Virus record (IMG/VR): IMGVR_UViG_2721755712_000002
DNA length: 10,019 nt
Strand: one strand, 5' to 3'
DNA from: a virus
Lineage: Duplodnaviria; Heunggongvirae; Uroviricota; Caudoviricetes
The translations under genes and the position numbers were made by a program. The number at the start of each line of letters is the position of its first letter. Positions within the stretch are counted from its first letter, which is position 1. Positions 1 to 10,019 of this stretch are shown one piece after another. The notes under the pieces were generated by a model that did not search any database, was not told the DNA's origin, and saw nothing but the letters and a program-made list of their open reading frames with translations.

Positions 1-110
1 CTAACCCATTGATTCTTTCGAAAACCTAAATTTGAGGAAGCCGGATAACACCATTTTTATAGCTCCGATCCCTTCAAAGTGAGGGGTAATTTGCCAAAAC
101 AGAGAGAGCA

Positions 111-434
111 TTACTGTCTCTGGCAATCTTTATCGCGATAACGCCTGAAGTACCCTCTCGCTTCCTCATCCATACCAAGAGCCGAATGAGTCCGCTTACC
201 AACATCCATCAATCCACTGAGAACGCCATACATAAAACGGTCGAAACCGTTAGCATTATTAACAACATTTTCCTGTCTGGAATTTTCCTCTGGTGAAACC
301 AAAGGTGATTGCTGCTGTTCTGGTTGGGCATCAAGCACAAAACCATCAGGAAGCTGTGAACTATCAGGAAACTGTGAGTTATCAGGTTGTTCATCGAGCA
401 CAAAACCTTCCGGTAAGATTACATTTGCTGCCAT
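111..434 (-). CDS. Hypothetical protein (107 aa) with an internal tandem peptide repeat
   Basis: ATG 434 with AGGAA upstream, overlapping the 3' end of the 447-aa gene by 16 nt. Repeat PEGFVLDEQPDNSQ / PDGFVLDAQPEQQQ, acidic and Gln-rich. Stop TAA at 111. Confidence 0.45.
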   Translation of the reverse strand: MAANVILPEGFVLDEQPDNSQFPDSSQLPDGFVLDAQPEQQQSPLVSPEENSRQENVVNNANGFDRFMYGVLSGLMDVGKRTHSALGMDEEARGYFRRYRDKDCQRQ

Positions 435-1762
435 TTTCCGTTCCTGTAAATGATTTTCTGACCAGTTTTAGGGTTGGTTGCCGTTGCGCCTTCTGATATT
501 CCTCCGGTTGCCGCTTTTGCCTGTCCAGTGCCAGCCTGTGATGTAGGCTGCCCGGAAACATCGTCAAATAGCTTCGCTTTCCTTCTTTCAAGGCTTTTTC
601 TTAGCCCCTGAGGAATAGTTTCTCCATATGTATCGAGATACTCGTCAACCTGCTGGTTAAACTGCTGCCCCATAGCATTGGCGTTGATTTTTGCGGCGTT
701 AACAATGTTATCCTTTGCCTCCTGCGACAGGCCGTTTCCAGCATTAAGCTGGTCTATGTATCCTTTGATTTGTCCCCATATGCCATCAGACCGCATTACC
801 TGAACCTGTTCGCCTTCACGAACGACTGACTGCGGGTCAAGAGATTTCATGTAGTTGAAGATAATCCCAAGTTGGGCAGCGCCAGTATTTACCTTGCTAA
901 GGGCTTGCAGAGAGTTTGCCGCCGCTCTGACAGAGTTATAATTTTTGCCAAAATTGGTAATGTCAGAATTTAATCCCTTAATTAAGTCTGCTGACGGCTT
1001 ACCTTTTTGCCCCAGCTCCATTAGCTTCAATCCCATCTCATCTGAGTGAATTTGTGCTCGCTGAGCCCTGTCTAGTTGAGCGTTCTGGATATTTGCCCAT
1101 CCTCTCGCGTTCTCCATGTCAGCCTGACGCATACTTTCATCCAGTCGCCCTTGCTCAAGTCGACGACCTTCCATTTGATCTTTGATATCGAAATACTTCT
1201 CATGACCGAGAGAAAACAGCGCCAGATTACCTGCGAAATGCTGGAAGCCCTGCGGGTCATTAACCTGCATTTCAGCAATAGTTTCTGGAGGGATACCTAA
1301 ACGACGCATCTCCTGCTCATTATCCATCATGAACCTGCCAAATGCGCCCTGACCAAGCGATGAGGCTACCTGTGCTTTGAGCGCCAGATTGCCATAATCA
1401 TCCCTTTGAGCATCATCGACATAACTCATCCCTTTACGGACTTCCTCAAACTCTTCTGGGAATGCTGTAATAAGATTACGCATCTGCTCCCTGTCACCGG
1501 ACGCATAAGCATCTGCATAACCTTTCTGGAATGCCGCTTTACGTTCCTGCTGTTGCTGCTGCTTATAAATGTCAGCAACTCCAGCCAGACCACGAAGACC
1601 TGTCAGAGCAACGTTATTTGCACCTGAGCGAGCCAGTTCATTGTTTTCGCGGATCAGACCAAGCGTTGCGTTAATGTCGCTTGCCTTTGGCGCATTCTCA
1701 TTTTGCGCACCGATGCCAGCCAGAAAACCACCAGAATTAATACCCTGTTGCCACGTAGCCAT
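419..1762 (-). CDS. Hypothetical protein (447 aa from ATG 1762; 451 aa if GTG 1774), Q/N/G/A-rich, possibly structural or coiled-coil
   Basis: Long ORF with consistent codon usage. ATG 1762 lies 5 nt after the upstream stop; GTG 1774 is the alternative. Contains a QQQQQ run and Gly/Asn-rich segments. No Shine-Dalgarno clearly visible. No catalytic motif recognised. Confidence 0.75.
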   Translation of the reverse strand: MATWQQGINSGGFLAGIGAQNENAPKASDINATLGLIRENNELARSGANNVALTGLRGLAGVADIYKQQQQQERKAAFQKGYADAYASGDREQMRNLITAFPEEFEEVRKGMSYVDDAQRDDYGNLALKAQVASSLGQGAFGRFMMDNEQEMRRLGIPPETIAEMQVNDPQGFQHFAGNLALFSLGHEKYFDIKDQMEGRRLEQGRLDESMRQADMENARGWANIQNAQLDRAQRAQIHSDEMGLKLMELGQKGKPSADLIKGLNSDITNFGKNYNSVRAAANSLQALSKVNTGAAQLGIIFNYMKSLDPQSVVREGEQVQVMRSDGIWGQIKGYIDQLNAGNGLSQEAKDNIVNAAKINANAMGQQFNQQVDEYLDTYGETIPQGLRKSLERRKAKLFDDVSGQPTSQAGTGQAKAATGGISEGATATNPKTGQKIIYRNGKWQQM

Positions 1763-1766
1763 AAAT

Positions 1767-1940
1767 TTACCCACGTCCAGTTAAAGTGTAAGCCAGCGCC
1801 TTATCCATTAATCCCCGAGCAATTTCGTGGATCGTTGGCGCAACTCCTACCTCTGATTTTTTACGCTGCTCCTCCTGAATTTTCTTTATCGCTTCCATTT
1901 GCTTCTCACTTATCAATACTGGCTTTACTGAAATAGCCAT
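1767..1940 (-). CDS. Small protein (57 aa), possibly ribbon-helix-helix (CopG/Arc-like) DNA-binding
   Basis: ATG 1940 with AAGGGGGG Shine-Dalgarno 4 nt upstream. The 100-aa ORF-track version (to 2069) is an unsupported extension across the terminator hairpin. Predicted pattern of strand (ISVKPVLIS) then two helices; the fold is inferred only. Confidence 0.55.
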   Translation of the reverse strand: MAISVKPVLISEKQMEAIKKIQEEQRKKSEVGVAPTIHEIARGLMDKALAYTLTGRG

Positions 1941-1974
1941 AACGCCCCCCTTAGAACTGTATAAAACAACAGTC

Positions 1975-2003
1975 ATTATAGTTTCATAAAACGCAACATT
2001 CAT
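1975..2003 (-). promoter_or_regulatory. Candidate sigma70 promoter for the 57-aa/447-aa operon
   Basis: Perfect TATAAT on the minus strand (plus 1975..1980), about 35 nt upstream of ATG 1940. The -35 at 17-bp spacing (ATGAAT) is weak. Lies between the terminator and the gene start. Confidence 0.3.
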
Positions 2004-2041
2004 CATTGTGATTGCAAAATATGAAACAAATAGCACAAAAA

Positions 2042-2068
2042 AATGCCACCGTTCAGTAGCTGGTGGCA
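2042..2068 (-). terminator. Candidate rho-independent terminator for leftward (minus-strand) transcription
   Basis: On the minus strand: stem AUGCCACC / GGUGGCAU (plus 2042..2049 pairing with 2061..2068), 11-nt loop, then UUUUUU (plus A-run 2037..2042). The loop is longer than ideal. Confidence 0.45.
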
Positions 2069-2263
2069 TCGTTCTGTATGTCAGGTTTTGACAGTTTTTT
2101 TATGGACTCTAAAAACTATATTTATGGAGTCGCATTACTCTTCACGGCAGGCGCTTTCCAGTTCTGCCCTTGCTTCTGGCTCCATTGGTAATTTGATTCG
2201 CGATCAGCTATGCGGATGGTTTGCTGAACAGGCATAACAACATCTCAGAGGCTATTTTTTGAA

Positions 2264-2280
2264 CTACGAAAATTTCGTAG
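2264..2280. promoter_or_regulatory. 17-bp near-perfect palindrome CTACGAAAATTTCGTAG; candidate operator for a dimeric DNA-binding protein
   Basis: Read directly: 8-bp arms CTACGAAA / TTTCGTAG around a single central base. Located in the 600-bp non-coding region. No T-tract follows on either strand, so it is unlikely to be a terminator. Confidence 0.35.
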
Positions 2281-2435
2281 TGCTCACCTTCAAAAACGTC
2301 ACGCCCTTGTACACTGGATTTTACAAAAGTCTCGTAAAACTCTTTGCTGTTCTGGGCTATGTGCCAAACCGCAGCGAATACCTCCGTCTGCCAGATGAGC
2401 AAAACATACCTTATAAAGAAAATCGCTGTTTTTGC

Positions 2436-2539
2436 TGTACCACCTGTACCACCATGTCACAAACCCTTGTGTGGCGCGGCCTGCAGGTGGTACAGGTGGG
2501 TAAAAATGACCTCTCCCCACCTGTACAGACCTGTACCAT
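2436..2539. repeat. Iteron cluster 1: the same GGTGGTACAGGT core in both orientations, including tandem 9-mers (CTGTACCAC)x2
   Basis: Read directly: CTGTACCACCTGTACCACC at 2436..2454 (reverse orientation of the core), GGTGGTACAGGTGG at 2487..2500, CCACCTGTACAGACCTGTACCA at 2518..2539. Lies immediately downstream of the 245-aa gene stop (2544). Confidence 0.7.
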
Positions 2540-2543
2540 TTAT

Positions 2544-3281
2544 TTAATTTTTACCCATAGCAGCACATAATCCCTTTTTTGAAATATTGAAAAATGCGTT
2601 CATTCTTCCCGCTGGCTTAACCTTGTAGCCGCTTGCCACCATCGCCGCAATAAATGCTCCGTTGGGGATATAGTGCGGGTGATCACTGTGCTGGTGGTTT
2701 ATCTGGTTATATCGCTCCACTTCATGCTTCAACGTGTCAGATGTGGGGTTATCCTGCGGGAAGCTCTCAATCTGGGCATTACTCATCCCGTTGTCTCTGA
2801 TCCATCTCAGGCAGCTTTTCGCCGATACGATAAATGACGGGTTATCAAGCGGGTTTTCCCAGTCCGCATTCCGGTTGTGGAGCGCCAGTCCGTCAAGGTT
2901 AAATTGTGGGTATTCAGCGGTAATTACTGTCACTGCGTGGCGGATTTCAGTCTCGTCACAACATGGCTCATCTCCCACACCAGCAGGGTAATAATCTGAA
3001 CCACCGGGACTGATACAGCGTTTACCACTGAAAGGCCATTGCTTCGCCATTTCGGGTGTTGAGTGATTACCGTCGCTCCGTTCGCGCTGTGCCTCTGTCC
3101 ACTGGCTGGCATATTCAGTAAATGAAACTCTTTGCCCCTGGCGCATCCAGTGCGCAATCATAATTAAAGTGCGTTCCAGACTTTGGATGTCGCCAGCATT
3201 CCCGCACTGTGTAGCGAAACTTTTTAATTCTTCGCGCTCCGTTCTGGTCATTCCCTGCAGTATGCAATAGTTATTGTTCAT
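2544..3281 (-). CDS. Hypothetical protein (245 aa), Cys- and His-containing, no recognisable family
   Basis: ATG 3281 with GAGG upstream, coupled to the 76-aa gene. Segments RCISPGGSDYYPAGVGDEPCCDE and HQHSDHPH could be metal-binding. Followed directly by iteron cluster 1. Good codon usage and length. Confidence 0.7.
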   Translation of the reverse strand: MNNNYCILQGMTRTEREELKSFATQCGNAGDIQSLERTLIMIAHWMRQGQRVSFTEYASQWTEAQRERSDGNHSTPEMAKQWPFSGKRCISPGGSDYYPAGVGDEPCCDETEIRHAVTVITAEYPQFNLDGLALHNRNADWENPLDNPSFIVSAKSCLRWIRDNGMSNAQIESFPQDNPTSDTLKHEVERYNQINHQHSDHPHYIPNGAFIAAMVASGYKVKPAGRMNAFFNISKKGLCAAMGKN

Positions 3282-3501
3282 GTTTTACCTCTCTGATTTC
3301 TGCTGCCATATCTGTTGGCTCTATACAGCCGTCCCGACTTGCCACGCAGGGAATAATGATTTCAACGGTATCGCCGTCAATACACATTTCAACATTCGCC
3401 CATGCCGCAATGGGTAGCCAGTCTGAACGCCCCTCAAACCGTAGCTGCCAGCCAGAGGAAGAAGCTAACTGGCGCACTTTGTAAAATGGTGTGCTCATCA
3501 T
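3271..3501 (-). CDS. Small hypothetical protein (76 aa), first gene of a two-gene module
   Basis: ATGATG start at 3501 with GAGGGA upstream; stop TAA overlaps the next gene's start by 11 nt (ATGAACAATAA). Preceded by iteron cluster 2. Confidence 0.6.
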   Translation of the reverse strand: MMSTPFYKVRQLASSSGWQLRFEGRSDWLPIAAWANVEMCIDGDTVEIIIPCVASRDGCIEPTDMAAEIREVKHEQ

Positions 3502-3545
3502 TGGTTGTTCCCTCTCAGCCAGCCAGAAGAAATGCGTTTGTTAAT

Positions 3546-3648
3546 GGTATAGGTGGTACAGGTCTGGTATAGGTAAGATATTGACCTGTACCACTATAAC
3601 GCATTGTTTTTAATGCTGAATTAGCAAAGTGGTATAGGTGGTACAGGT
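3546..3648. repeat. Iteron cluster 2: exact 19-bp direct repeat TGGTATAGGTGGTACAGGT twice (84 bp apart), a partial copy, and an inverted copy
   Basis: Read directly: 3546..3564 and 3630..3648 are identical; TGGTATAGGT at 3566..3575; GACCTGTACCACTATA at 3583..3598 is the inverted copy. Sits between the stop of the primase-like gene (3678) and the start of the 76-aa gene (3501). Confidence 0.7.
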
Positions 3649-3677
3649 AAAAACGATCTTCTTGTAAAAAGACTATA

Positions 3678-4457
3678 TTAAAAAACATCATAACCCCCCA
3701 TACCGATCAGACGGGCAAACGCAGCCTGTAGAACTCCGACCTCTGGTAGTTCGTAGAACACGCCATTCCCTCGGTCTGGTCTTCCATGCTTCACCAGCCC
3801 CATTTGTGCAAGTGATTTACCCAGTAGTGATCTGGCAGCTGGTTCTTTAAGCTTTTCCCCACGCTCAAGCGACCACGCTACAAATCGACTAACCATATCC
3901 TTTGCAAACAAACGGACTTCGCCATTAAACGGAGGTTCATTGATTAGCTCGCCATAAAGAAACAATTCAACGCCAGACAGCCCCAGCAAGATTTCTTCAC
4001 GTAAGGCATCGGTCTGTGGCGCTCGTTGAGGGTCAAAACCTGAGAGATCCACCCCTTTAAGATGCCAAAGCAACTTTGCGGCACCGCCATCATTAAGCCA
4101 ACTGTACAGCCGATCAAAATACTCCCGGCTCTGTGCTTTTTCAGGAGATGGCTCAAGCACGAGATAGCGGCGCTCTCTTATCCCTGCCTGTAATACCTGT
4201 GTGCTGTTACTGGCAAATATCAACCGGGCAAAATTCGGCATTGGTTCAGCATCAATTCCCTTGCGCTCAAGGTTAAACGTCGGTTCGCTAATAATCGCTT
4301 CCTGAATAGCTTCTGGTACGCCATTGAGCAGTGACATAACCGCGCCAATCATTAACTTGTCTCTGTTGCTTGGGCTGGCCCCTTCAAGCCAGAACCCTAA
4401 AACAGTCTGAACCTGTTCGATGCGACATTGCGCTTCAATGAGCTGGATGTTGGTCAT
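3678..4457 (-). CDS. Primase-helicase C-terminal-like protein (259 aa); helicase motif C and arginine-finger-like segment, no Walker A in this ORF
   Basis: GGAGAG Shine-Dalgarno 6 nt upstream of ATG 4457. Segment ARLIFASNSTQVLQAGIRERRYLVLEPS resembles the motif C (hhhhS/T-N) plus Arg-finger region of SF3/P4-family primase-helicases. No GxxxxGK(S/T) P-loop is present. Product assignment is from recalled motifs only. Confidence 0.65.
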   Translation of the reverse strand: MTNIQLIEAQCRIEQVQTVLGFWLEGASPSNRDKLMIGAVMSLLNGVPEAIQEAIISEPTFNLERKGIDAEPMPNFARLIFASNSTQVLQAGIRERRYLVLEPSPEKAQSREYFDRLYSWLNDGGAAKLLWHLKGVDLSGFDPQRAPQTDALREEILLGLSGVELFLYGELINEPPFNGEVRLFAKDMVSRFVAWSLERGEKLKEPAARSLLGKSLAQMGLVKHGRPDRGNGVFYELPEVGVLQAAFARLIGMGGYDVF

Positions 4458-4717
4458 TTCGCACTCTCCACATCGATTAAACTGATATCTATCAGGGAGG
4501 TAACTTTTTGTAGCCAGCTATTGATTACTGTCGCCTGTTCCCCTCCCACCGAGGGAATAATCTCATTCATCACATGAACCAGACCTGTGCGCGCTCTGGT
4601 AAGCCGTTCAGTCGCGCAATCTGCGGGAGTGAATGTGTCTGGATATGGCTCTTCGCGCCCCAGCAATGATTCAATTTCCAGCTCACACGGATGACGATAA
4701 ATTAAGTTGATATTCAT
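4454..4717 (-). CDS. Small hypothetical protein (87 aa); contains a Gly-rich segment VGGEQAT that could be a degenerate P-loop (speculative)
   Basis: ATGA overlaps at both ends (4717 and 4454). GGTGGTG Shine-Dalgarno-like sequence upstream. Part of the coupled operon. Confidence 0.5.
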   Translation of the reverse strand: MNINLIYRHPCELEIESLLGREEPYPDTFTPADCATERLTRARTGLVHVMNEIIPSVGGEQATVINSWLQKVTSLIDISLIDVESAK

Positions 4718-4908
4718 TTTTCACCACCAAGAATTACCAGCTCTGCACGGGCATCGTTAACCAAAGATGAGCACGCTTTAATCGCATCCACGACATCAGC
4801 AGCGTCCATTTCTTCAGCCGAAAGACTGACAGCAACCAGGACAGCCGCTGCTTGCTCGATTAATTGAAGTGCGGACGTAAGGCGAGGGGTATTAATTGAG
4901 TTATTCAT
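4714..4908 (-). CDS. Small hypothetical protein (64 aa)
   Basis: ATG 4908 with ACGGGGG Shine-Dalgarno-like sequence upstream; 8-nt overlap with the upstream gene; stop TGA overlaps the next ATG (ATGA). Confidence 0.5.
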   Translation of the reverse strand: MNNSINTPRLTSALQLIEQAAAVLVAVSLSAEEMDAADVVDAIKACSSLVNDARAELVILGGEK

Positions 4909-5119
4909 TGGTTGCCCCCGTTTTTACTGGCATTTCGCCACCTTCCAGCAGGAAATGAACGTCACGAACGGCGAGATCCAATATCGCGAGTAACGCCTTC
5001 AGTCTTTCGTCTCGTGAGGGAGAGTTGCTCACCAGAATGTCGTTAATCACTTCTGTCAGTGTGATGATCTGGCTTGTGCGTTCGAGGGGATCCATATGCA
5101 CATCGTAGGTTTTAATCAT
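4901..5119 (-). CDS. Small hypothetical protein (72 aa)
   Basis: ATG 5119 preceded by GGAGGTGG; ATGATTAA overlap with the upstream gene's stop. Corresponds to the C-terminal 72 codons of the 355-codon ORF. Stop TAA overlaps the next ATG (ATGAATAA). Confidence 0.5.
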   Translation of the reverse strand: MIKTYDVHMDPLERTSQIITLTEVINDILVSNSPSRDERLKALLAILDLAVRDVHFLLEGGEMPVKTGATNE

Positions 5120-5306
5120 GTGCCACCTCCATGCGGATACGACCAGCAAAAAAGCAGACGTGATCGCGCACCAGAGAACGGCGAGCATCGCGTTCAGACT
5201 CGGCAGCAATATGATGAATTTTGGCGGTAATTGTCGGGCAATCGCGGCGAACTGCGGCGATAATCCAGATAAATTGCGTTTTTTGGGTAGGGGTAGTAGC
5301 CAGCAT
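5112..5306 (-). CDS. Small hypothetical protein (64 aa)
   Basis: AAGGAGG Shine-Dalgarno 7 nt upstream of ATG 5306. Codons are E. coli-like (CGC, CTG, GAT, GCC) in this frame, whereas the overlapping frame of the 355-codon ORF is rare-codon-rich here. Stop TAA forms an ATGATTAA overlap with the next gene. Confidence 0.5.
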   Translation of the reverse strand: MLATTPTQKTQFIWIIAAVRRDCPTITAKIHHIAAESERDARRSLVRDHVCFFAGRIRMEVAHD

Positions 5307-5968
5307 GTGGCAGCCTCCTTCAGATAGCAGGTTACGCTACCACCGGAAACGCCAATTTCGCTGGTGGTAGCCCAGACAGGGTTGGCGTAACCGGCTCTGA
5401 AGGATACCGGCGCTTCCGAAGAAGCCCCCGCCTGAGCCACCATTGATTGACAAAGGCGCTGGATTATACACCAACGCCCAAAAAATGGGTGAGTCAGACC
5501 TACGACATAAAAAAAGACGCTCGGCGCGTCATATGTCGCCTTCAGAATTTTTAGGACGCCAATCCCGGCACCCGTTTTATGAGGTGCCTTATAACCATAA
5601 ACCGTGTTGCCGCATAACGGCAAGCTCTTTTTTATGGACTCCGAAAACTCACTATTGGAAGAACCAGAAGCACAGTACATCGCGCTCATTTCGTTAACGT
5701 CACGCGCGTGGACGAAGGTTTTTGTGGAGTCACTACACGAGCAGAGAAAGCCATCTACGACCAGAAATTCTCTGGCATAGCCGCTGACCTTCTCAACGCT
5801 AACACCATCGACCGTAATTTCTGACATAGTTAAGGCATCCGCTCCTACCACCAGCAAATGATAAACTTTGCTTGTATCTGCTGTATTAATGTCTGACTTT
5901 GCTGTCATATTGCTGGATTTTGGCGACATACCAGCCAGTGAAAATATCTTCTTCTGGGCGGTTAGCAT
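5303..5968 (-). CDS. Hypothetical protein (about 221 codons) with no in-frame stop; the frame stays open to 4901, giving the 355-codon ORF in the track
   Basis: ATG 5968 has a GGAGG Shine-Dalgarno 7 nt upstream and overlaps the previous stop (ATGCTAA). Codon usage is good in this frame down to about 5306, then rare codons (CTA, TTA, CGA, ATA, AGG) appear while the -1 frame becomes well-coded. At the expected ATGA start/stop overlap the sequence is ATGC, so the 3' end given here is inferred. Confidence 0.55.
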
Positions 5969-6144
5969 TTGTTAACCTCCGCGAACTCCTTCATGAAACG
6001 TGCCAGCGGTTGTACGCATGGCGATTGATACCCGTCGCGATAAAACGTCACTCGGTTGTGAGACACGCTTTCGACAGTAACGAGTGCTCCGTGGGCATCT
6101 TTGTAGCGTTTTTGAGGTTGTGGTGTTCCTGTCGGCTTAAACAT
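5962..6144 (-). CDS. Small hypothetical protein (60 aa)
   Basis: ATG at 6144 forms an ATGTTTAA overlap with the antirepressor stop codon, indicating translational coupling. The longer ORF-track version (5962..6231) is an unlikely upstream extension. Stop TAA at 5962. Confidence 0.5.
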   Translation of the reverse strand: MFKPTGTPQPQKRYKDAHGALVTVESVSHNRVTFYRDGYQSPCVQPLARFMKEFAEVNKC

Positions 6145-6970
6145 GGACCGCCTCCAGACGCTTGGCGAGCCAGCGTTGCGACAGGCGGGTGAGTTCTCCT
6201 TTGCGCTGCTCATATTCCATGCCCATATCAATTAACGTGATATTGGTGCTTTCGAGATATGAGAGGTGCTCAAGCTGTTCTGCGTTCATATGGTCGCGAG
6301 GTTCGCCAGAATAGCCATTTATCCGCGCCCACTGCTTAGCAGTTAGCCCACCAAGAACGATACGAGAAATCATATTGCTCTCGTTTGTGTAGTGGTGTTG
6401 CTGCGTCGTTTTCCCCATCTCGGCACGGGCCATATTCAGCGCATCGCACATTGGCTTGAAGTTGTTTGCGGCACTGATACGGGCTTTTAGCTGGCGACGA
6501 TAGCGGGCGGCGATTTCAGGCACGCTACGCTGTAATTCTTTCTCGCACTGGATGAAATAACGGCGGATAGCGCGACCCTGATCATTGCGTTCGATCATTG
6601 CCAGTTCTTTCGCCATTCCGACACTTAACAGATAGTCTTTGCCGGGTCTGCCAGAGTGCTTAATCTTGCTGTAAGCCGCGCCATTCGGGCTTTTCCCCAA
6701 ATTTGGGGAAATTGTTTTATGGACTGAGTAATCGTGCCCAATGGTGAAGTCATATTCAGAGATGCGATCAGTGATCCATGTAGAGAAGTCTTTTCCCACG
6801 CCCAACGCTTTGTGTAACGCTTTTGCGCTAACAATATTGGTTTCACGCCCGCCTATATGACCAGAAATAACCGGGACAATTGCGGCAAATTCATTACCGT
6901 TAATTGTGCCCAGAGAGGCGTTCAGATGAGGGGCGGCCTCAGAAATTAATCTGCTTTTTTCGATGTTCAT
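6137..6970 (-). CDS. Phage antirepressor, AntA/Rha/KilAC-like (277 aa)
   Basis: N-terminal SAKALHKALGVGKDFSTWITDRI and central GKDYLLSVGMAKELAMIERNDQGRAIRRYFIQCEKEL match the conserved core of phage antirepressor families (recalled motif). GGAG Shine-Dalgarno 8 nt upstream of ATG 6970. Confidence 0.8.
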   Translation of the reverse strand: MNIEKSRLISEAAPHLNASLGTINGNEFAAIVPVISGHIGGRETNIVSAKALHKALGVGKDFSTWITDRISEYDFTIGHDYSVHKTISPNLGKSPNGAAYSKIKHSGRPGKDYLLSVGMAKELAMIERNDQGRAIRRYFIQCEKELQRSVPEIAARYRRQLKARISAANNFKPMCDALNMARAEMGKTTQQHHYTNESNMISRIVLGGLTAKQWARINGYSGEPRDHMNAEQLEHLSYLESTNITLIDMGMEYEQRKGELTRLSQRWLAKRLEAVHV

Positions 6971-6982
6971 TTTTAGTCTCCG

Positions 6983-7414
6983 TTAGGCGGCGTTAAACGC
7001 GTCCGGGTAGAGTTTCAGAATGTCGGCAATTTCCTGCTGAGAAAGTCCGTTGTGATCATTTATGTTCGCAAGATGGTTAACATGAGTGATCACTTTCAGA
7101 ACATCACCACGGCAGGAGAAACGGTAGCGAAGGTGTGTTCCGATACCATCAGGATTCTTTTCGTCGATACGCTCCAGAGTGATTCCAAGCTGGCGTTCTA
7201 ACTCTGTTGCATAGTTACGACCAGAAGACAGACGGCAGTAGCGAAGAATGTCATTTTCTGTCCATCCCTCTATACCAGTACGCAGCATATAGACTCGGGC
7301 ACGATGCTTTTTCGGTGTGCGCTTTGGTGCTTGAAGGGATTTTGTAAGGGGCGTAATATCAGATACGCGAATATCTGAATTAGCCGCCTGTAATGGGCGG
7401 TTTTTCTTTTCCAT
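6983..7414 (-). CDS. Hypothetical protein (143 aa), possibly DNA-binding; basic N-terminus
   Basis: ATG 7414..7412 overlaps the alpA stop. Lys/Arg-rich N-terminal segment (APKRTPKKHRAR), then a region that could be a winged helix. Codon usage consistent with neighbours. No family recognised. Confidence 0.65.
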   Translation of the reverse strand: MEKKNRPLQAANSDIRVSDITPLTKSLQAPKRTPKKHRARVYMLRTGIEGWTENDILRYCRLSSGRNYATELERQLGITLERIDEKNPDGIGTHLRYRFSCRGDVLKVITHVNHLANINDHNGLSQQEIADILKLYPDAFNAA

Positions 7415-7632
7415 CAGGCCACCTTCCCGCGGCGTTCTGCCAGCCAGTTATTAATTTCCACCGCATCAAACGCAGTCACGTTATCTGTTAGCTTCACTGG
7501 GCGTGGAAGAGTGCCATTTTTAACCCATCTATCAATAGTAGGCAGTGAAACACCTAGCAATTCCGGCATGCGAAAGCGACGGATGTATCCAGTTGTTGGG
7601 ATAGCTGATGATGCTGGCTTGTGTACTGTCAT
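7414..7632 (-). CDS. alpA: AlpA-family transcriptional regulator / excisionase-like DNA-binding protein (72 aa)
   Basis: Motif RMPELLGVSLPTIDRWVKNGTLPRPVKL matches the AlpA/Xis-type helix-turn-helix signature (TI-x-RW-x-K-x-G-x-P-x-P-x-KL). First gene after the AT-rich control region. Stop TGA overlaps the next ATG (TGATG). Confidence 0.8.
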   Translation of the reverse strand: MTVHKPASSAIPTTGYIRRFRMPELLGVSLPTIDRWVKNGTLPRPVKLTDNVTAFDAVEINNWLAERRGKVA

Positions 7633-7713
7633 GTCTCTAGTAACCTCTCTGATAGCTCATGAAGTTACTTAAAGTTTAGTGGTTGCCCATACAGTATTTC
7701 TATTAAGACTAGA

Positions 7714-7769
7714 ATCTATTGAAAGAAATTATAAATCTATTGAAAAAATACCGATCCACTGAAAGATTG
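7714..7769. promoter_or_regulatory. Three direct repeats of a (T)CTATTGAAA(G/A)A-like motif at 21-22 bp spacing, upstream of the AlpA-like gene; putative regulator or nucleoid-protein binding sites
   Basis: ATCTATTGAAAGAAATT at 7714..7730, ATCTATTGAAAAAATAC at 7735..7751, partial copy CCACTGAAAGATTG at 7756..7769. They sit 85-135 bp upstream of the minus-strand start at 7632, in a roughly 30% GC region. Confidence 0.35.
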
Positions 7770-7923
7770 CAAATGCAGGTGGGATAATTATTTTCTTTAT
7801 TTTCAATTAGTTACCAGTTTAAAAAATCATTGTTTTATCAAAGAGTTATATCTTTCATCGTCATTCATCATGTTTTTACATTTCTTTTTATCTTTTATTA
7901 TTCAATTGGTTGAGTCGGTTTAT

Positions 7924-7960
7924 AATGGCTCATGATGGCTTAAAATGGCTAATGATAGCT
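7924..7960. repeat. Tandem direct repeat, two 17-bp units with 20-bp period (AATGGCTCATGATGGCT / AATGGCTAATGATAGCT)
   Basis: Read directly: units at 7924..7940 and 7944..7960, 15 of 17 identical. A perfect TATAAT hexamer sits at 7921..7926 on the plus strand. Lies in the AT-rich integrase-proximal intergenic region. Confidence 0.5.
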
Positions 7961-8103
7961 GGCGTATCTTTTAGAGATGGGGTGATTACAGATGAACTAA
8001 GCCGAACAGATATAGCAATGGCTAGGCATAGAATTATCTATGCTGGTGGAGATGGGTAAACAGGTAATGCCCCGCCATTGCTTTGGAGGGGCGTGAAAAG
8101 TGA

Positions 8104-8754
8104 TTAGTCGAGATCGTGGACAGCTAATAAAGCCCGTGAGATTTTTTCTAGGAATGTGGCTTTTGCTATTCCTTTATGGGATATCCCTTCATCCTTGATT
8201 AAGGTTTCTATGTCACGGTATATAGCTGTGCGATTAGGTTTCCCATTTTGGATGTAGGAAGATGAGCCTGATTTTTTTATCAGCAGATGTACTATCAACC
8301 CCATCATTTTCATTGTCCCGTTTTCCTCATCCTGCTTTCTATGCTGCCCACGTCCGCTGCGGTTGGTTTCTTTGATGTAGTTTACTAACTGGAGTCCTCC
8401 AAGGTTTCGGGCTTTTTCTTCCCAGCCCTTGGTGCCACGCAAATCATCAATCGCTTCTGATATTTTCTGAACAATTATTTCTGGTGTATTTGTGTCAATA
8501 AATGGGTAAGAAGCTAAGAAAATATCAAGGGCATGGCAAGGCTCATCTTTACTAGTTTTTTCACCTCTGTACACCTTGATAGCTCTGGCAAGATGAGTTC
8601 TGACAAAATCGACATATTCGAAATTTTCCTCAGGCACATCGCTAATGCGCATAGATGGGTTTAGGCCAGCCAAGGCCACAGCCATTTCATGAGGGGTAAT
8701 CGATACAGATGAACAAAGCCGTTCGATTGGCGATTTTCTCAAGATGTTGTTCAC
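8104..8754 (-). CDS. Hypothetical protein (216 aa), AT-rich cargo gene translationally coupled to the integrase; function unknown
   Basis: ORF starts at GTG 8754..8752, overlapping the integrase stop TGA (ATGTGA); alternative in-frame ATG at 8685. About 40% GC in the counted segments against about 50% for the integrase. Stop TAA at 8104. No motif I can recognise. Confidence 0.6.
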   Translation of the reverse strand: MNNILRKSPIERLCSSVSITPHEMAVALAGLNPSMRISDVPEENFEYVDFVRTHLARAIKVYRGEKTSKDEPCHALDIFLASYPFIDTNTPEIIVQKISEAIDDLRGTKGWEEKARNLGGLQLVNYIKETNRSGRGQHRKQDEENGTMKMMGLIVHLLIKKSGSSSYIQNGKPNRTAIYRDIETLIKDEGISHKGIAKATFLEKISRALLAVHDLD

Positions 8755-10019
8755 ATTTGCCTCCGGGCTTTATCGAATGGCGTTACGTTGTAGTCTTTCC
8801 CGCTTTCCAGTGCCACCAGCAGATCTGCCCACTGTGCCAGTGCTGCTTTACGCTCATCAAAATACTGATGACGGTTATAAATCCCCTCTACGCCCTTAAT
8901 GCGATGATTGAGGCATCGTTCCGCCACGACAGGATCAACACCCAATGCTGCTAAATGAGTACGTGCGGTGCGTCGGAAGTCGTGAATCGTGAAATTAGGC
9001 ACATCCGGCATTTCGGCGCGAACCTTAGCCAGTGCTACGGGTAAAGTGCTTTCCTGAATATGTGGGATCATTCTGTTTTGCATCTTCCTGGCCGGAAGCA
9101 CCCATGCGCTATTACATGAAAAGGTGTGTAGCTCTCTCAACCATTCAACGGCTGGGGAAGGTAGAGGTATATCAATAGGGTCTCCGTTTTTGCTGCGTTC
9201 TTCCGGCAAATGCCATACCGCACCATCTAAATCAAACTCTTCCCATCGTGCGGCGCATAACTCCATCTTACGAACGCATAGTGCCAGCAATAGCTTAAAT
9301 GTCAGTTCGTTCTGGCGGCTGAATCCTTTTGCGGTGCGCATAGCCTCGAATAGCCTGATAAGCTCATCGCGAGTTAGCCAACGGTCGCGGGAAACCTCTT
9401 TACCACCAGCATCAGATACTTCAAACGCTGAACAAGGGTTTATCTCCAGAGCGTGGCGTTTTATCCCATAGTCAAAGATACGGCGTGTCCAGCGTAATAC
9501 ATCTGTTGCTATCGTTGGTGCTCCTCGGTCAACGATACCTTTTAACATGTCGTCAATGTGACGTGGCTTAACGTCCTCTACCTTCATATGCCCAATGCAG
9601 GGGTTAATATCCTTATCAATTCTCCGGCGAAGGATATCGGGATGTTTCCATCTCGGAAGTATCTGTCGCTCGAAGTATTCGGCGGCCAGATCTGAAACGC
9701 GCATGGCGTTTTTCTCAGCCTCCATTTTTGCCAGTGCTTCAGCTTTTCGTTCCTGTTTTTCTGCTGCTACGTCATAGCCAAGAGCAACTCTGGCTGACAG
9801 CTCTTTTGCTGTTTCTCTGGCTTTTGATAGTGACAGTTCGGAGTAAGAGCCGATAACCATAGCCCGCTGTTTTCCTGCGAGCTTATATCGGAATCGCCAG
9901 AACGGGACTGTGTAGTTTTTGGGGTAGCAAATATAAAGGCCGTTGCCGTCTGCCTTGCCATCAAATCTGTCTCCCGCCTTTATCCATGCGCGGATCTGCA
10001 TATCTGTGAGTTTTGGCAT
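8751..10019 (-). CDS. int: Tyrosine recombinase / site-specific integrase, P4 family (422 aa)
   Basis: The ATG is the last three bases of the window. N-terminus MPKLTDMQIRAWIKAG...GNGLYICY...WRFRYKLAGKQ is typical of the P4-integrase arm-binding region. C-terminal catalytic region contains HDFRRT (His-x-x-Arg), LNH and GIYNRHQY (candidate tyrosine nucleophile). Family assignment is from recalled motifs, not a search. Confidence 0.9.
   Translation of the reverse strand: MPKLTDMQIRAWIKAGDRFDGKADGNGLYICYPKNYTVPFWRFRYKLAGKQRAMVIGSYSELSLSKARETAKELSARVALGYDVAAEKQERKAEALAKMEAEKNAMRVSDLAAEYFERQILPRWKHPDILRRRIDKDINPCIGHMKVEDVKPRHIDDMLKGIVDRGAPTIATDVLRWTRRIFDYGIKRHALEINPCSAFEVSDAGGKEVSRDRWLTRDELIRLFEAMRTAKGFSRQNELTFKLLLALCVRKMELCAARWEEFDLDGAVWHLPEERSKNGDPIDIPLPSPAVEWLRELHTFSCNSAWVLPARKMQNRMIPHIQESTLPVALAKVRAEMPDVPNFTIHDFRRTARTHLAALGVDPVVAERCLNHRIKGVEGIYNRHQYFDERKAALAQWADLLVALESGKDYNVTPFDKARRQM

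What the first reader, a model, noticed from the sequence alone, without database searches (positions are those of the whole stretch)
3678..4717. Primase-helicase-like gene without a recognisable Walker A; possibly a degraded or split replication gene
The 259-aa product carries a segment resembling SF3-helicase motif C plus an arginine finger (IFASNSTQ...RERR), but no P-loop. The preceding 87-aa ORF contains a glycine-rich VGGEQAT segment that might be a degenerate Walker A lacking the lysine. If so, the element has a split and inactivated primase-helicase, and the retained C-terminal part, where P4 alpha carries its origin-binding domain, may serve as an iteron-binding protein for the adjacent repeats. 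Alternatively these are unrelated small proteins.
Basis: inference. Interest (0 to 1): 0.5.

Follow-up and report, generated by a model that had tools for sequence, protein, structure and literature searches.

The report
Deletion-made remnant of a primase-helicase
The 259-aa gene is a leftover made when a 2.4-kb deletion inside an E. coli phage-satellite island fused the start of a small gene to the tail of its primase-helicase, so the island has lost its own replication enzyme; this is ordinary decay of a mobile element.

Summary
The 259-aa ORF (3678-4457, minus strand) is not a split gene. It is an in-frame chimera created by a 2,401-bp deletion with 5 bp of microhomology (CGCTT, 4296-4300).

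- Residues 1-53 are the N-terminus of a 73-aa small gene.
- Residues 54-259 are residues 578-783 of a 783-aa P4-alpha-like primase-helicase (Zn ribbon, Toprim, DUF5906). This protein is intact at the same dinD/yicC site in E. coli O6:H16 strain 2014EL-1346-6 and in at least 115 other genomes.
- The deletion removed the primase, Walker A (VPGTGKGT, residues 517-524) and Walker B.
- Motif C, the RERR segment and a confidently predicted C-terminal winged helix remain.
- The 87-aa ORF is an intact, unrelated gene, identical in the intact island. It is not a Walker A remnant.

Two clusters of GGTAYAGGT iterons survive next to the remnant. Across Gammaproteobacteria their core is about 50-fold enriched just 3' of homologous genes, so they most likely mark the origin.

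The island belongs to the published EcCIMP1 PICI family. The deleted form occurs in 9 of 5,426 complete E. coli genomes, always together with a second in-frame deletion. No cognate helicase copy was detected elsewhere in those genomes. Whether the remnant still binds the iterons is untested. Interest is low.

The parts
3678..4457 (-). 259-aa chimeric ORF (RefSeq WP_072327873.1, annotated 'primase-helicase family protein')
   Evidence: ORF list and annotation. Its prefix is identical to the 73-aa protein and its suffix to residues 578-783 of the 783-aa primase-helicase.
4301..4457 (-). N-terminal 52-53 codons taken from the 73-aa small gene (WP_000181940.1, phrog_20558), with its own GGAG ribosome-binding site and its ATGA coupling to the 87-aa gene
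   Evidence: Common prefix of 54 residues; the alanine at the junction is shared by both parents. phrog_20558 hit on residues 3-54. RBS context.
4296..4300 (.). Junction of deletion B: 5-bp microhomology CGCTT. 2,401 bp of the intact island (L003 11802-14202) are missing.
   Evidence: blastn of the window against L003 and L002; junction sequences.
3678..4295 (-). Retained 3' part of the primase-helicase gene, encoding residues 578-783 and the stop codon. It holds the last strands of the DUF5906 NTPase core with motif C (IFASNS, nt 4203-4220) and RERR (nt 4167-4178), a helical linker and the C-terminal domain.
3681..4010 (-). C-terminal domain containing a winged helix (fusion residues about 150-259), the presumed iteron-binding domain
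4454..4717 (-). 87-aa ORF (WP_001024673.1): an intact, independent small gene, not part of the helicase
   Evidence: Identical to the copy in the intact island L003. A homologous 87-aa ORF sits at the same position in EcCIMP1 beside a different primase. No family hits. No similarity to the helicase.
3544..3650 (.). Iteron cluster I: six GGTAYAGGT copies in both orientations flanking an A+T-rich spacer, starting 28 bp after the helicase stop codon. Putative origin, placed like P4 crr.
   Evidence: Family-wide enrichment 3' of homologous genes. P4 crr layout.
2434..2539 (.). Iteron cluster II: three exact GGTACAGGT copies plus one near-copy, directly 3' of the 245-aa ORF
   Evidence: A second cluster at a similar distance occurs in the Buttiauxella loci L009 and L022.
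196..198 (.). Junction of deletion A: 3,973 bp lost, TTA microhomology. Found in the same nine genomes as deletion B.
111..434 (-). Second in-frame fusion ORF (107 aa): residues 1-80 of a 705-aa protein joined to the last 28 residues of PerC

Best explanation
The window is an EcCIMP1-family phage-inducible chromosomal island (PICI) inserted between dinD and yicC. Its replication module has been destroyed by an illegitimate-recombination deletion.

Shown:
- A 2,401-bp deletion between two CGCTT pentamers removed the last 19 codons of a 73-aa gene, the whole of a 200-aa gene and codons 1-577 of a 783-aa primase-helicase.
- The two ends happen to join in frame, giving a 259-aa ORF.
- This ORF keeps the 73-aa gene's ribosome-binding site and its start codon, which overlaps the upstream stop.
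- It lacks the Zn ribbon, the Toprim primase domain, and Walker A and Walker B.
- It keeps motif C, the RERR segment and the C-terminal domain.

Inferred:
- The product cannot hydrolyse NTP, prime or unwind DNA.
- Its first 100 or so residues are probably unfolded.
- The island can no longer replicate on its own after excision, although both iteron clusters (the presumed origin) remain.
- In intact relatives the C-terminal winged helix is the most likely reader of the TGGTAYAGGT iterons just 3' of the gene, as the P4 alpha C-terminal domain reads the iterons of ori and crr.
- The remnant is most probably a neutral by-product that may keep some iteron binding.
For: Deletion and fusion:
- Window 196-4300 equals L003 7697-11801 at 100% identity, and window 4296-10019 equals L003 14198-19921 with 2 mismatches. 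L003 is the intact island at the same chromosomal site with the same integrase.
- Prefix and suffix identities and the junction sequences define the fusion.
- Two PHROG families hit the two halves separately.
- All 55 related loci match only query residues 33-259, never the first 32. Most matches begin at residues 53-55, at the junction.

What was lost:
- The intact parent has Zn_Ribbon_Prim at 34-69, Toprim_3 at 221-321 and DUF5906 at 514-613.
- Walker A is at residue 517 and Walker B at 558, both deleted.
- The parent aligns to the NrS-1 helicase 6k9c over residues 474-653.

Structure: residues 1-100 have pLDDT below 50, and the C-terminal domain is mostly above 90. The fold matches are winged helices.

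Iterons:
- Nine exact copies against 0.08 expected, none in the deleted DNA.
- The TGGTAYAG core occurs at 11.95 per kb in the 300 bp 3' of homologues in 53 loci, against 0.233 per kb elsewhere. 38 of 53 loci have two or more copies there.

Distribution:
- Both junctions occur in the same 9 of 5,426 genomes.
- The deleted segment is present in at least 115 genomes.
- Megablast finds no second copy of the helicase tail or iteron region in the nine genomes.

Island family: EcCIMP1 is a functional PICI mobilised by phage Kapi1 (PMC11773190) and has the same gene order.
Against: - Nothing contradicts the deletion origin.
- Loss of autonomous replication is inferred, not measured. A diverged helicase encoded elsewhere, or by a helper phage, could act on the retained iterons, and megablast would miss copies below about 85% identity.
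- Both deletions in this island are in frame. The chance of that is about 1 in 9 if they were independent and random, which leaves a little room for selection.
Confidence: 0.9

Rival explanations
1. Exapted remnant. The fusion protein is expressed and kept because its winged helix still binds the TGGTAYAGGT iterons. It would then act as a dominant-negative origin blocker (exclusion or incompatibility against incoming sibling islands) or as a regulator.
For: - The winged-helix domain is intact and confidently predicted.
- Both iteron clusters are retained.
- The fusion is in frame with a native RBS and start codon.
- No terminator-like site on the coding strand lies within 3678-4908, the run from the 64-aa gene through the fusion.
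- A second, independent remnant in a Psychromonadaceae MAG begins only about 5 codons away, at intact residue 573.
Against: - The variant occurs in only nine genomes, and its flanks are 100% identical to the intact sibling, so there has been no time for selection to show.
- An in-frame outcome has a one-in-three chance.
- The N-terminal 100 residues are predicted to be disordered.
- The other remnants were found with a C-terminal query, so their retention of the C-terminus reflects how they were found.
- Other remnants break at different points, residues 464 and 643.
Confidence: 0.08
2. One reading: a split helicase, in which the 87-aa ORF carries a degenerate Walker A (VGGEQAT) and the 259-aa ORF carries the rest.
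For: Only the adjacency of the two ORFs and a glycine-rich heptad.
Against: - The 87-aa ORF is identical in the intact island, where it lies three genes upstream of a complete helicase.
- A homologous 87-aa ORF sits at the same position in EcCIMP1, next to a different primase.
- It has no similarity to the helicase (E 5.4) or to the family profile (probability 0.07%).
- The real Walker A, at residues 517-524, was in the deleted DNA.
Confidence: 0.01
3. The ORFs are unrelated small proteins, or the junction is an assembly artefact.
For: None beyond the lack of a full Pfam hit.
Against: - 206 residues are identical to the tail of the intact helicase.
- Full-length family members match at E values down to 1e-62.
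- The same junction is present in nine independently assembled complete genomes.
Confidence: 0.01

Closest known systems
Satellite phage P4 alpha protein (primase-helicase with a C-terminal ori/crr-binding domain) and its iterons
   Same: The intact parent (783 aa, against 777 aa for P4 alpha) has the same order of domains: Zn_Ribbon_Prim, Toprim_3, DUF5906 NTPase and a C-terminal DNA-binding-type domain. Its primase part is 33% identical to P4 alpha (E 9e-41). A cluster of short iterons in both orientations lies directly 3' of the gene, as crr does in P4, and there is a second cluster elsewhere.
   Different: - No D5_N or Pox_D5 Pfam hit.
- The helicase and C-terminal parts do not align with P4 alpha by BLASTP or hhalign.
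- TIGR01613 scores 20 bits against a cut-off of 108.7.
- The iteron is TGGTAYAGGT, whereas P4's type 1 repeats are 8 bp long.
- The window copy keeps only the last 206 residues.
EcCIMP1, the E. coli PICI mobilised by the P22-like phage Kapi1 (PMC11773190)
   Same: Same gene order: int, alpA, 143-aa gene, antA/B, DUF4222, ash, 64-aa gene, 87-aa gene, 73-aa gene, 200-aa gene, primase, then ejection protein and PerC. The 73-aa and DUF4222 proteins are identical.
   Different: - EcCIMP1 carries a TOPRIM+DUF927 primase instead of the DUF5906 type.
- It is inserted at a different site (tRNA-Thr/proA) with a different integrase.
- It is intact and functional, whereas the window copy has two internal deletions.
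NrS-1 phage primase-polymerase helicase domain (PDB 6k9c, 6k9e)
   Same: It is the only solved structure with sequence similarity to the parent's NTPase core (E 1.1e-10, residues 474-653). IFASNST aligns with IINSNET, and RERRYLVLE with SDRRFNVIE.
   Different: It has a different N-terminal primase type. The similarity ends before the winged-helix domain.
Winged-helix domains of replication initiators and loaders (Cdt1, ORC/Cdc6) and of MarR/SarA-type regulators
   Different: Sequence identity is only 5-18% and no Foldseek match reaches E 0.001. This is resemblance of fold only, with no evidence of family membership.

Membership tests
SF3-type helicase NTPase (Pfam DUF5906, PF19263) | Walker A P-loop (GxxxxGK[ST]-like) | tested here: not met
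   Absent from the 259-aa ORF. In the intact parent it is VPGTGKGT at residues 517-524, inside the deleted DNA.
SF3-type helicase NTPase (Pfam DUF5906, PF19263) | Walker B acidic motif | tested here: not met
   LLVFADEV at residues 558-565 of the parent lies upstream of the breakpoint at residue 578.
SF3-type helicase NTPase (Pfam DUF5906, PF19263) | Motif C and the following arginine segment | tested here: met
   IFASNS (residues 80-85) and RERR (94-97). N84, E95, R96 and R97 are invariant in 23 homologues. The segments align with the NrS-1 helicase. Assigning R96 or R97 as the arginine finger is inference.
SF3-type helicase NTPase (Pfam DUF5906, PF19263) | Score above the Pfam gathering threshold over the whole domain | tested here: not met
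   24.7 bits against a threshold of 27.6, covering profile positions 71-106 of 114 only. The intact parent scores 71.3 bits over positions 2-106.
P4 alpha-type primase-helicase | Zn-ribbon and Toprim primase domain | tested here: not met
   Absent from the window ORF. Present in the intact parent (PF08273 at 34-69, PF13362 at 221-321, 33% identical to P4 alpha).
P4 alpha-type primase-helicase | D5_N and Pox_D5 (origin-binding) domains, or the TIGR01613 P4-family signature | tested here: not met
   The parent has no D5_N or Pox_D5 hit, whereas P4 alpha has both. TIGR01613 scores 20.4 bits against a cut-off of 108.7. hhalign against P4 alpha gives probability 0.17%.
Iteron-binding replication initiator | DNA-binding (winged-helix) domain | tested here: met
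Iteron-binding replication initiator | Cognate iterons adjacent to the gene and conserved with it | tested here: met
   Nine copies in the window against 0.08 expected. In 53 homologous loci the core is 51-fold enriched in the 300 bp 3' of the gene.
Iteron-binding replication initiator | Demonstrated binding of the protein to the iterons | not testable with these tools
   Needs a gel-shift or footprinting experiment.
EcCIMP1-family PICI | Integrase, AlpA, antirepressor, Ash, primase and PerC in conserved order at a specific chromosomal site | tested here: met
   Synteny and identical proteins with E. coli MP1 EcCIMP1 and with the intact siblings L002 and L003. In the window copy the primase and PerC are truncated.
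EcCIMP1-family PICI | Induction, replication and packaging by a helper phage | not testable with these tools
   Shown experimentally only for EcCIMP1 (PMC11773190).

The most novel reading that the evidence does not exclude
The in-frame remnant (winged helix plus a stub of the NTPase core) is made from the AlpA-driven operon when a helper phage is induced. It occupies TGGTAYAGGT iterons and so blocks the origin of incoming sibling islands that carry the intact helicase. That would be a satellite-against-satellite exclusion factor born from gene decay. The near-coincident truncation point in an unrelated Psychromonadaceae island would then mark a functional domain boundary.
Probability: 0.06. 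Interest if true: 0.5.

Novelty: new member of a known kind. Interest (0 to 1): 0.17.

Why it matters
- It corrects an annotation trap. RefSeq names the ORF 'primase-helicase family protein', but it is a deletion chimera that cannot be a primase or a helicase. Satellite-finding schemes that score a 'primase' hit would count this island as replication-competent.
- It gives a precisely dated-looking example of how PICIs decay: two microhomology deletions, both in frame, in one ETEC-associated group of genomes.
- As a by-product it defines a candidate initiator-origin pair. A DUF5906 helicase with a C-terminal winged helix is accompanied by TGGTAYAGGT iterons 3' of the gene, and the pairing is conserved across several orders of Gammaproteobacteria. 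This could be tested directly.

Tried and rejected
- Sequence search of the last 140 residues against PDB found only chance-level hits (E at least 0.55), and P4 alpha's origin-binding domain was not found.
- hhalign of the family alignment against P4 alpha found nothing.
- BLASTP against P4 alpha aligned only the primase part of the parent.
- NCBIfam gave no hit for the 259-aa or 87-aa ORFs.
- I tried to find whether the nine deleted genomes carry an intact cognate helicase. Their 'second place' disappeared when the query was limited to 3500-4322. It therefore lies in the module of small genes at 4323-4500, presumably in another island. I could not obtain its coordinates.
- No GGTAYAGG iterons above chance were found in the Photobacterium locus L005. 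About 15 of the 53 loci lack the core motif and may use other repeats.
- The promoter and terminator scan was uninformative, with counts no higher than in shuffled sequence.
- I considered whether several remnants keeping the C-terminus shows selection. I rejected this because they were found with a C-terminal query.

Full report
**Observation.** The minus strand carries a 259-aa ORF at 3678-4457 and an 87-aa ORF at 4454-4717, with overlapping stop and start codons. The 259-aa product contains IFASNS and RERR and has no P-loop. Three results tie it to helicases.
- Pfam matches DUF5906, the SF3-like NTPase family, but only profile positions 71-106 of 114 and below the gathering score (24.7 against 27.6 bits, E 3.9e-5).
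- PHROGs matches residues 58-235 to positions 637-820 of an 855-position 'DNA primase' profile (E 3.4e-17). It separately matches residues 3-54 to a small family of unknown function, phrog_20558.
- A search of 5.8 billion proteins finds full-length DUF5906 proteins of about 445 aa that match the C-terminal four-fifths of the ORF (E 1e-43 to 1e-62).

**What it is.** The window is 99.98% identical to E. coli strain 99-3165 (L001). There it is an island between dinD and yicC, and RefSeq calls the ORF a 'primase-helicase family protein'. ETEC H10407 (L002) carries a longer form of the island. E. coli O6:H16 strain 2014EL-1346-6 (L003) carries a longer form at exactly the same chromosomal site, with the same integrase and the same flanking proteins.

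Compared with L003, the window is three collinear blocks:
- window 1-198 equals L003 3526-3723;
- window 196-4300 equals L003 7697-11801 at 100% identity;
- window 4296-10019 equals L003 14198-19921 with 2 mismatches.

Two deletions separate the blocks. Deletion B is 2,401 bp and lies between two CGCTT pentamers (window 4296-4300). It removed the 3' end of a 73-aa gene, a complete 200-aa gene and codons 1-577 of a 783-aa gene. The two reading frames differ by one position and 2,401 is 1 modulo 3, so the join is in frame. Residues 1-53 of the 259-aa ORF are the N-terminus of the 73-aa protein (WP_000181940.1). Residues 54-259 are residues 578-783 of the 783-aa protein (WP_001355493.1). The alanine at the junction is shared by both parents. 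The fusion keeps the 73-aa gene's GGAG ribosome-binding site and its ATGA coupling to the 87-aa gene.

**What was lost and what remains.** The intact protein has Zn_Ribbon_Prim at 34-69, Toprim_3 at 221-321 and DUF5906 at 514-613. Walker A (VPGTGKGT) is at residue 517 and Walker B (LLVFADEV) at 558. Both are upstream of the breakpoint and are gone. The remnant keeps the following.
- The last part of the NTPase core, with motif C and the RERR segment. These are invariant in homologues and align with the NrS-1 helicase 6k9c.
- A helical linker.
- A C-terminal domain.

**The 87-aa ORF.** It is identical in the intact island, where it sits three genes upstream of the complete helicase. A homologous 87-aa ORF occupies the same position in EcCIMP1, which has a different primase. 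It has no family hit and no similarity to the helicase (E 5.4) or to the family profile (probability 0.07%). The idea that it carries a degenerate Walker A is refuted.

**The repeats.** GGTAYAGGT occurs nine times in the window, against 0.08 expected.
- Six copies, in both orientations, flank an A+T-rich spacer at 3544-3650. This cluster begins 28 bp after the helicase stop codon.
- Three more copies, plus a near-copy, lie at 2434-2539.
- None was in the deleted DNA.

The layout recalls P4, where crr with its type 1 iterons lies directly 3' of the alpha gene and a second set forms ori.

A scan of one genome per species returned 55 related loci from Enterobacterales, Methylococcales, Alteromonadales and other orders. 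In the 53 usable loci, the core TGGTAYAG occurs at 11.95 per kb in the 300 bp after the gene and at 0.233 per kb elsewhere. 38 of the 53 loci have two or more copies there. This includes homologues only about 45% identical at the protein level, for example the Rheinheimera locus L006. The iterons are therefore a conserved companion of this helicase family and most likely mark its origin. That the winged helix reads them is an inference from fold, position and the P4 precedent.

**Relation to known systems.** Against P4 alpha, the parent's primase part is 33% identical (E 9e-41). The helicase and C-terminal parts do not align. The parent also lacks the D5_N and Pox_D5 domains that P4 alpha has. 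It scores far below the TIGR01613 cut-off. It is P4-alpha-like in architecture but is not a member of that subfamily.

The island as a whole matches EcCIMP1, a PICI shown experimentally to be induced, excised and packaged by the P22-like phage Kapi1 (PMC11773190). Gene order is the same and some proteins are identical. EcCIMP1, however, carries a TOPRIM+DUF927 primase, so the replication module has been swapped between relatives.

**Distribution.** The junction of deletion B is found in 9 of 5,426 complete E. coli genomes, all 100% identical over 3.5 kb. The junction of deletion A is found in exactly the same nine. The deleted segment is present nearly full-length in at least 115 genomes. With a query limited to the helicase tail and iterons, the nine genomes show a single place. 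Megablast therefore detects no cognate intact helicase elsewhere in them.

Deletion A (3,973 bp, TTA microhomology) also makes an in-frame fusion. It joins 80 residues of a 705-aa protein to the last 28 residues of PerC.

**Mechanism and rivals.** The best-supported reading, at about 0.9 confidence, is simple decay. Microhomology-mediated deletion inactivated the island's primase-helicase and left a chimeric ORF as a by-product. The island keeps its origin-like iterons but not its initiator-helicase, so it should excise without amplifying.

The one live rival, at about 0.08, is that the remnant is expressed and useful as an iteron-binding blocker. The points in its favour are the intact winged helix, the retained iterons, the in-frame fusion with native translation signals, and a second remnant in a Psychromonadaceae MAG that starts only about 5 codons away. 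The points against it are listed here.
- The deletion looks recent.
- An in-frame join happens by chance one time in three.
- The N-terminal third is predicted to be disordered.
- The other remnants were found with a C-terminal query, so they could not have lacked the C-terminus. They also break at other positions: an IS insertion at residue 464 in L007 and an internal loss of residues 552-642 in L064.

The split-gene and unrelated-protein readings are refuted.

**Verdict.** This is a real feature that is now explained and ordinary. It is a truncated, fused remnant of a P4-alpha-like primase-helicase in a decayed EcCIMP1-family PICI. The interest is low. The only modestly new by-product is the widely conserved pairing of this helicase family with TGGTAYAGGT iterons.

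Noticed in passing
window 1-434 (junction at 196-198; ORF 111-434, minus strand): A second deletion of 3,973 bp relative to L003, with TTA microhomology, removed three small genes and most of PerC and of a 705-aa gene. It also produced an in-frame fusion ORF of 107 aa. It occurs in exactly the same nine genomes as the helicase deletion.
   Followed up: yes
L003 3716-3723 and 14195-14202 (window about 188-195 and 4293-4300): The 8-mer GTCCGCTT lies at the left edge of deletion A and at the right edge of deletion B. With the strict co-occurrence of the two deletions, this could mean one complex template-switching event rather than two separate ones. It could also be chance.
   Followed up: partly
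window 2434-2539 and 3544-3650; loci L006, L009, L020-L027, L046, L053, L055, L059, L060: The iteron core TGGTAYAG(GT) is conserved 3' of homologous DUF5906 helicase genes across several orders of Gammaproteobacteria, even at about 45% protein identity. Some enterobacterial relatives (L009, L022) also have a second cluster about 1.2 kb downstream, as the window does. About 15 of 53 loci lack the motif.
   Followed up: partly
whole window; L063 (E. coli MP1, EcCIMP1): The island belongs to the published EcCIMP1 PICI family but carries a different replication module: Zn-ribbon/Toprim/DUF5906 instead of TOPRIM+DUF927, between conserved flanking genes. This points to module swapping between related satellites.
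   Followed up: partly
window 419-1774 (minus strand): A 451-aa homologue of the P22 injectosome DNA/protein translocase (Pfam Inj_translocase, E 2.5e-73) is encoded by the satellite island. This fits a P22-like helper phage, as for EcCIMP1 and Kapi1.
   Followed up: no
L065 4983-5648; L064 4457-5468; L007 3442-5999: There are independent decayed copies of the same helicase in other bacteria. A Psychromonadaceae MAG copy starts at intact residue 573, about 5 codons from the window's breakpoint, and is joined to an integrase fragment. One copy has lost residues 552-642. One is cut by an IS at residue 464.
   Followed up: partly
proteins P0029-P0031 (Logan assemblies): These 160-aa proteins are read-through fusions of the 87-aa and 73-aa genes (…VESAS-MTNIQL…). 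In some strains, then, the stop codon of the 87-aa gene is lost.
   Followed up: no
window 7920-7960: A 20-nt unit (TTAAAATGGCTAATGATAGC) is repeated twice in tandem in the A+T-rich region (GC 0.35) between the 216-aa ORF and alpA. It may be a regulatory site.
   Followed up: no
window 4901-5968 (minus strand): The 355-aa 'Ash family' protein has its Ash domain only in the middle (residues 124-232, E 5.9e-34). Long N- and C-terminal extensions match no family.
   Followed up: no
window 341-386: An 18-nt tandem repeat (2.6 copies) inside the 107-aa fusion ORF encodes the repeated peptide PDGFVLD.
   Followed up: no
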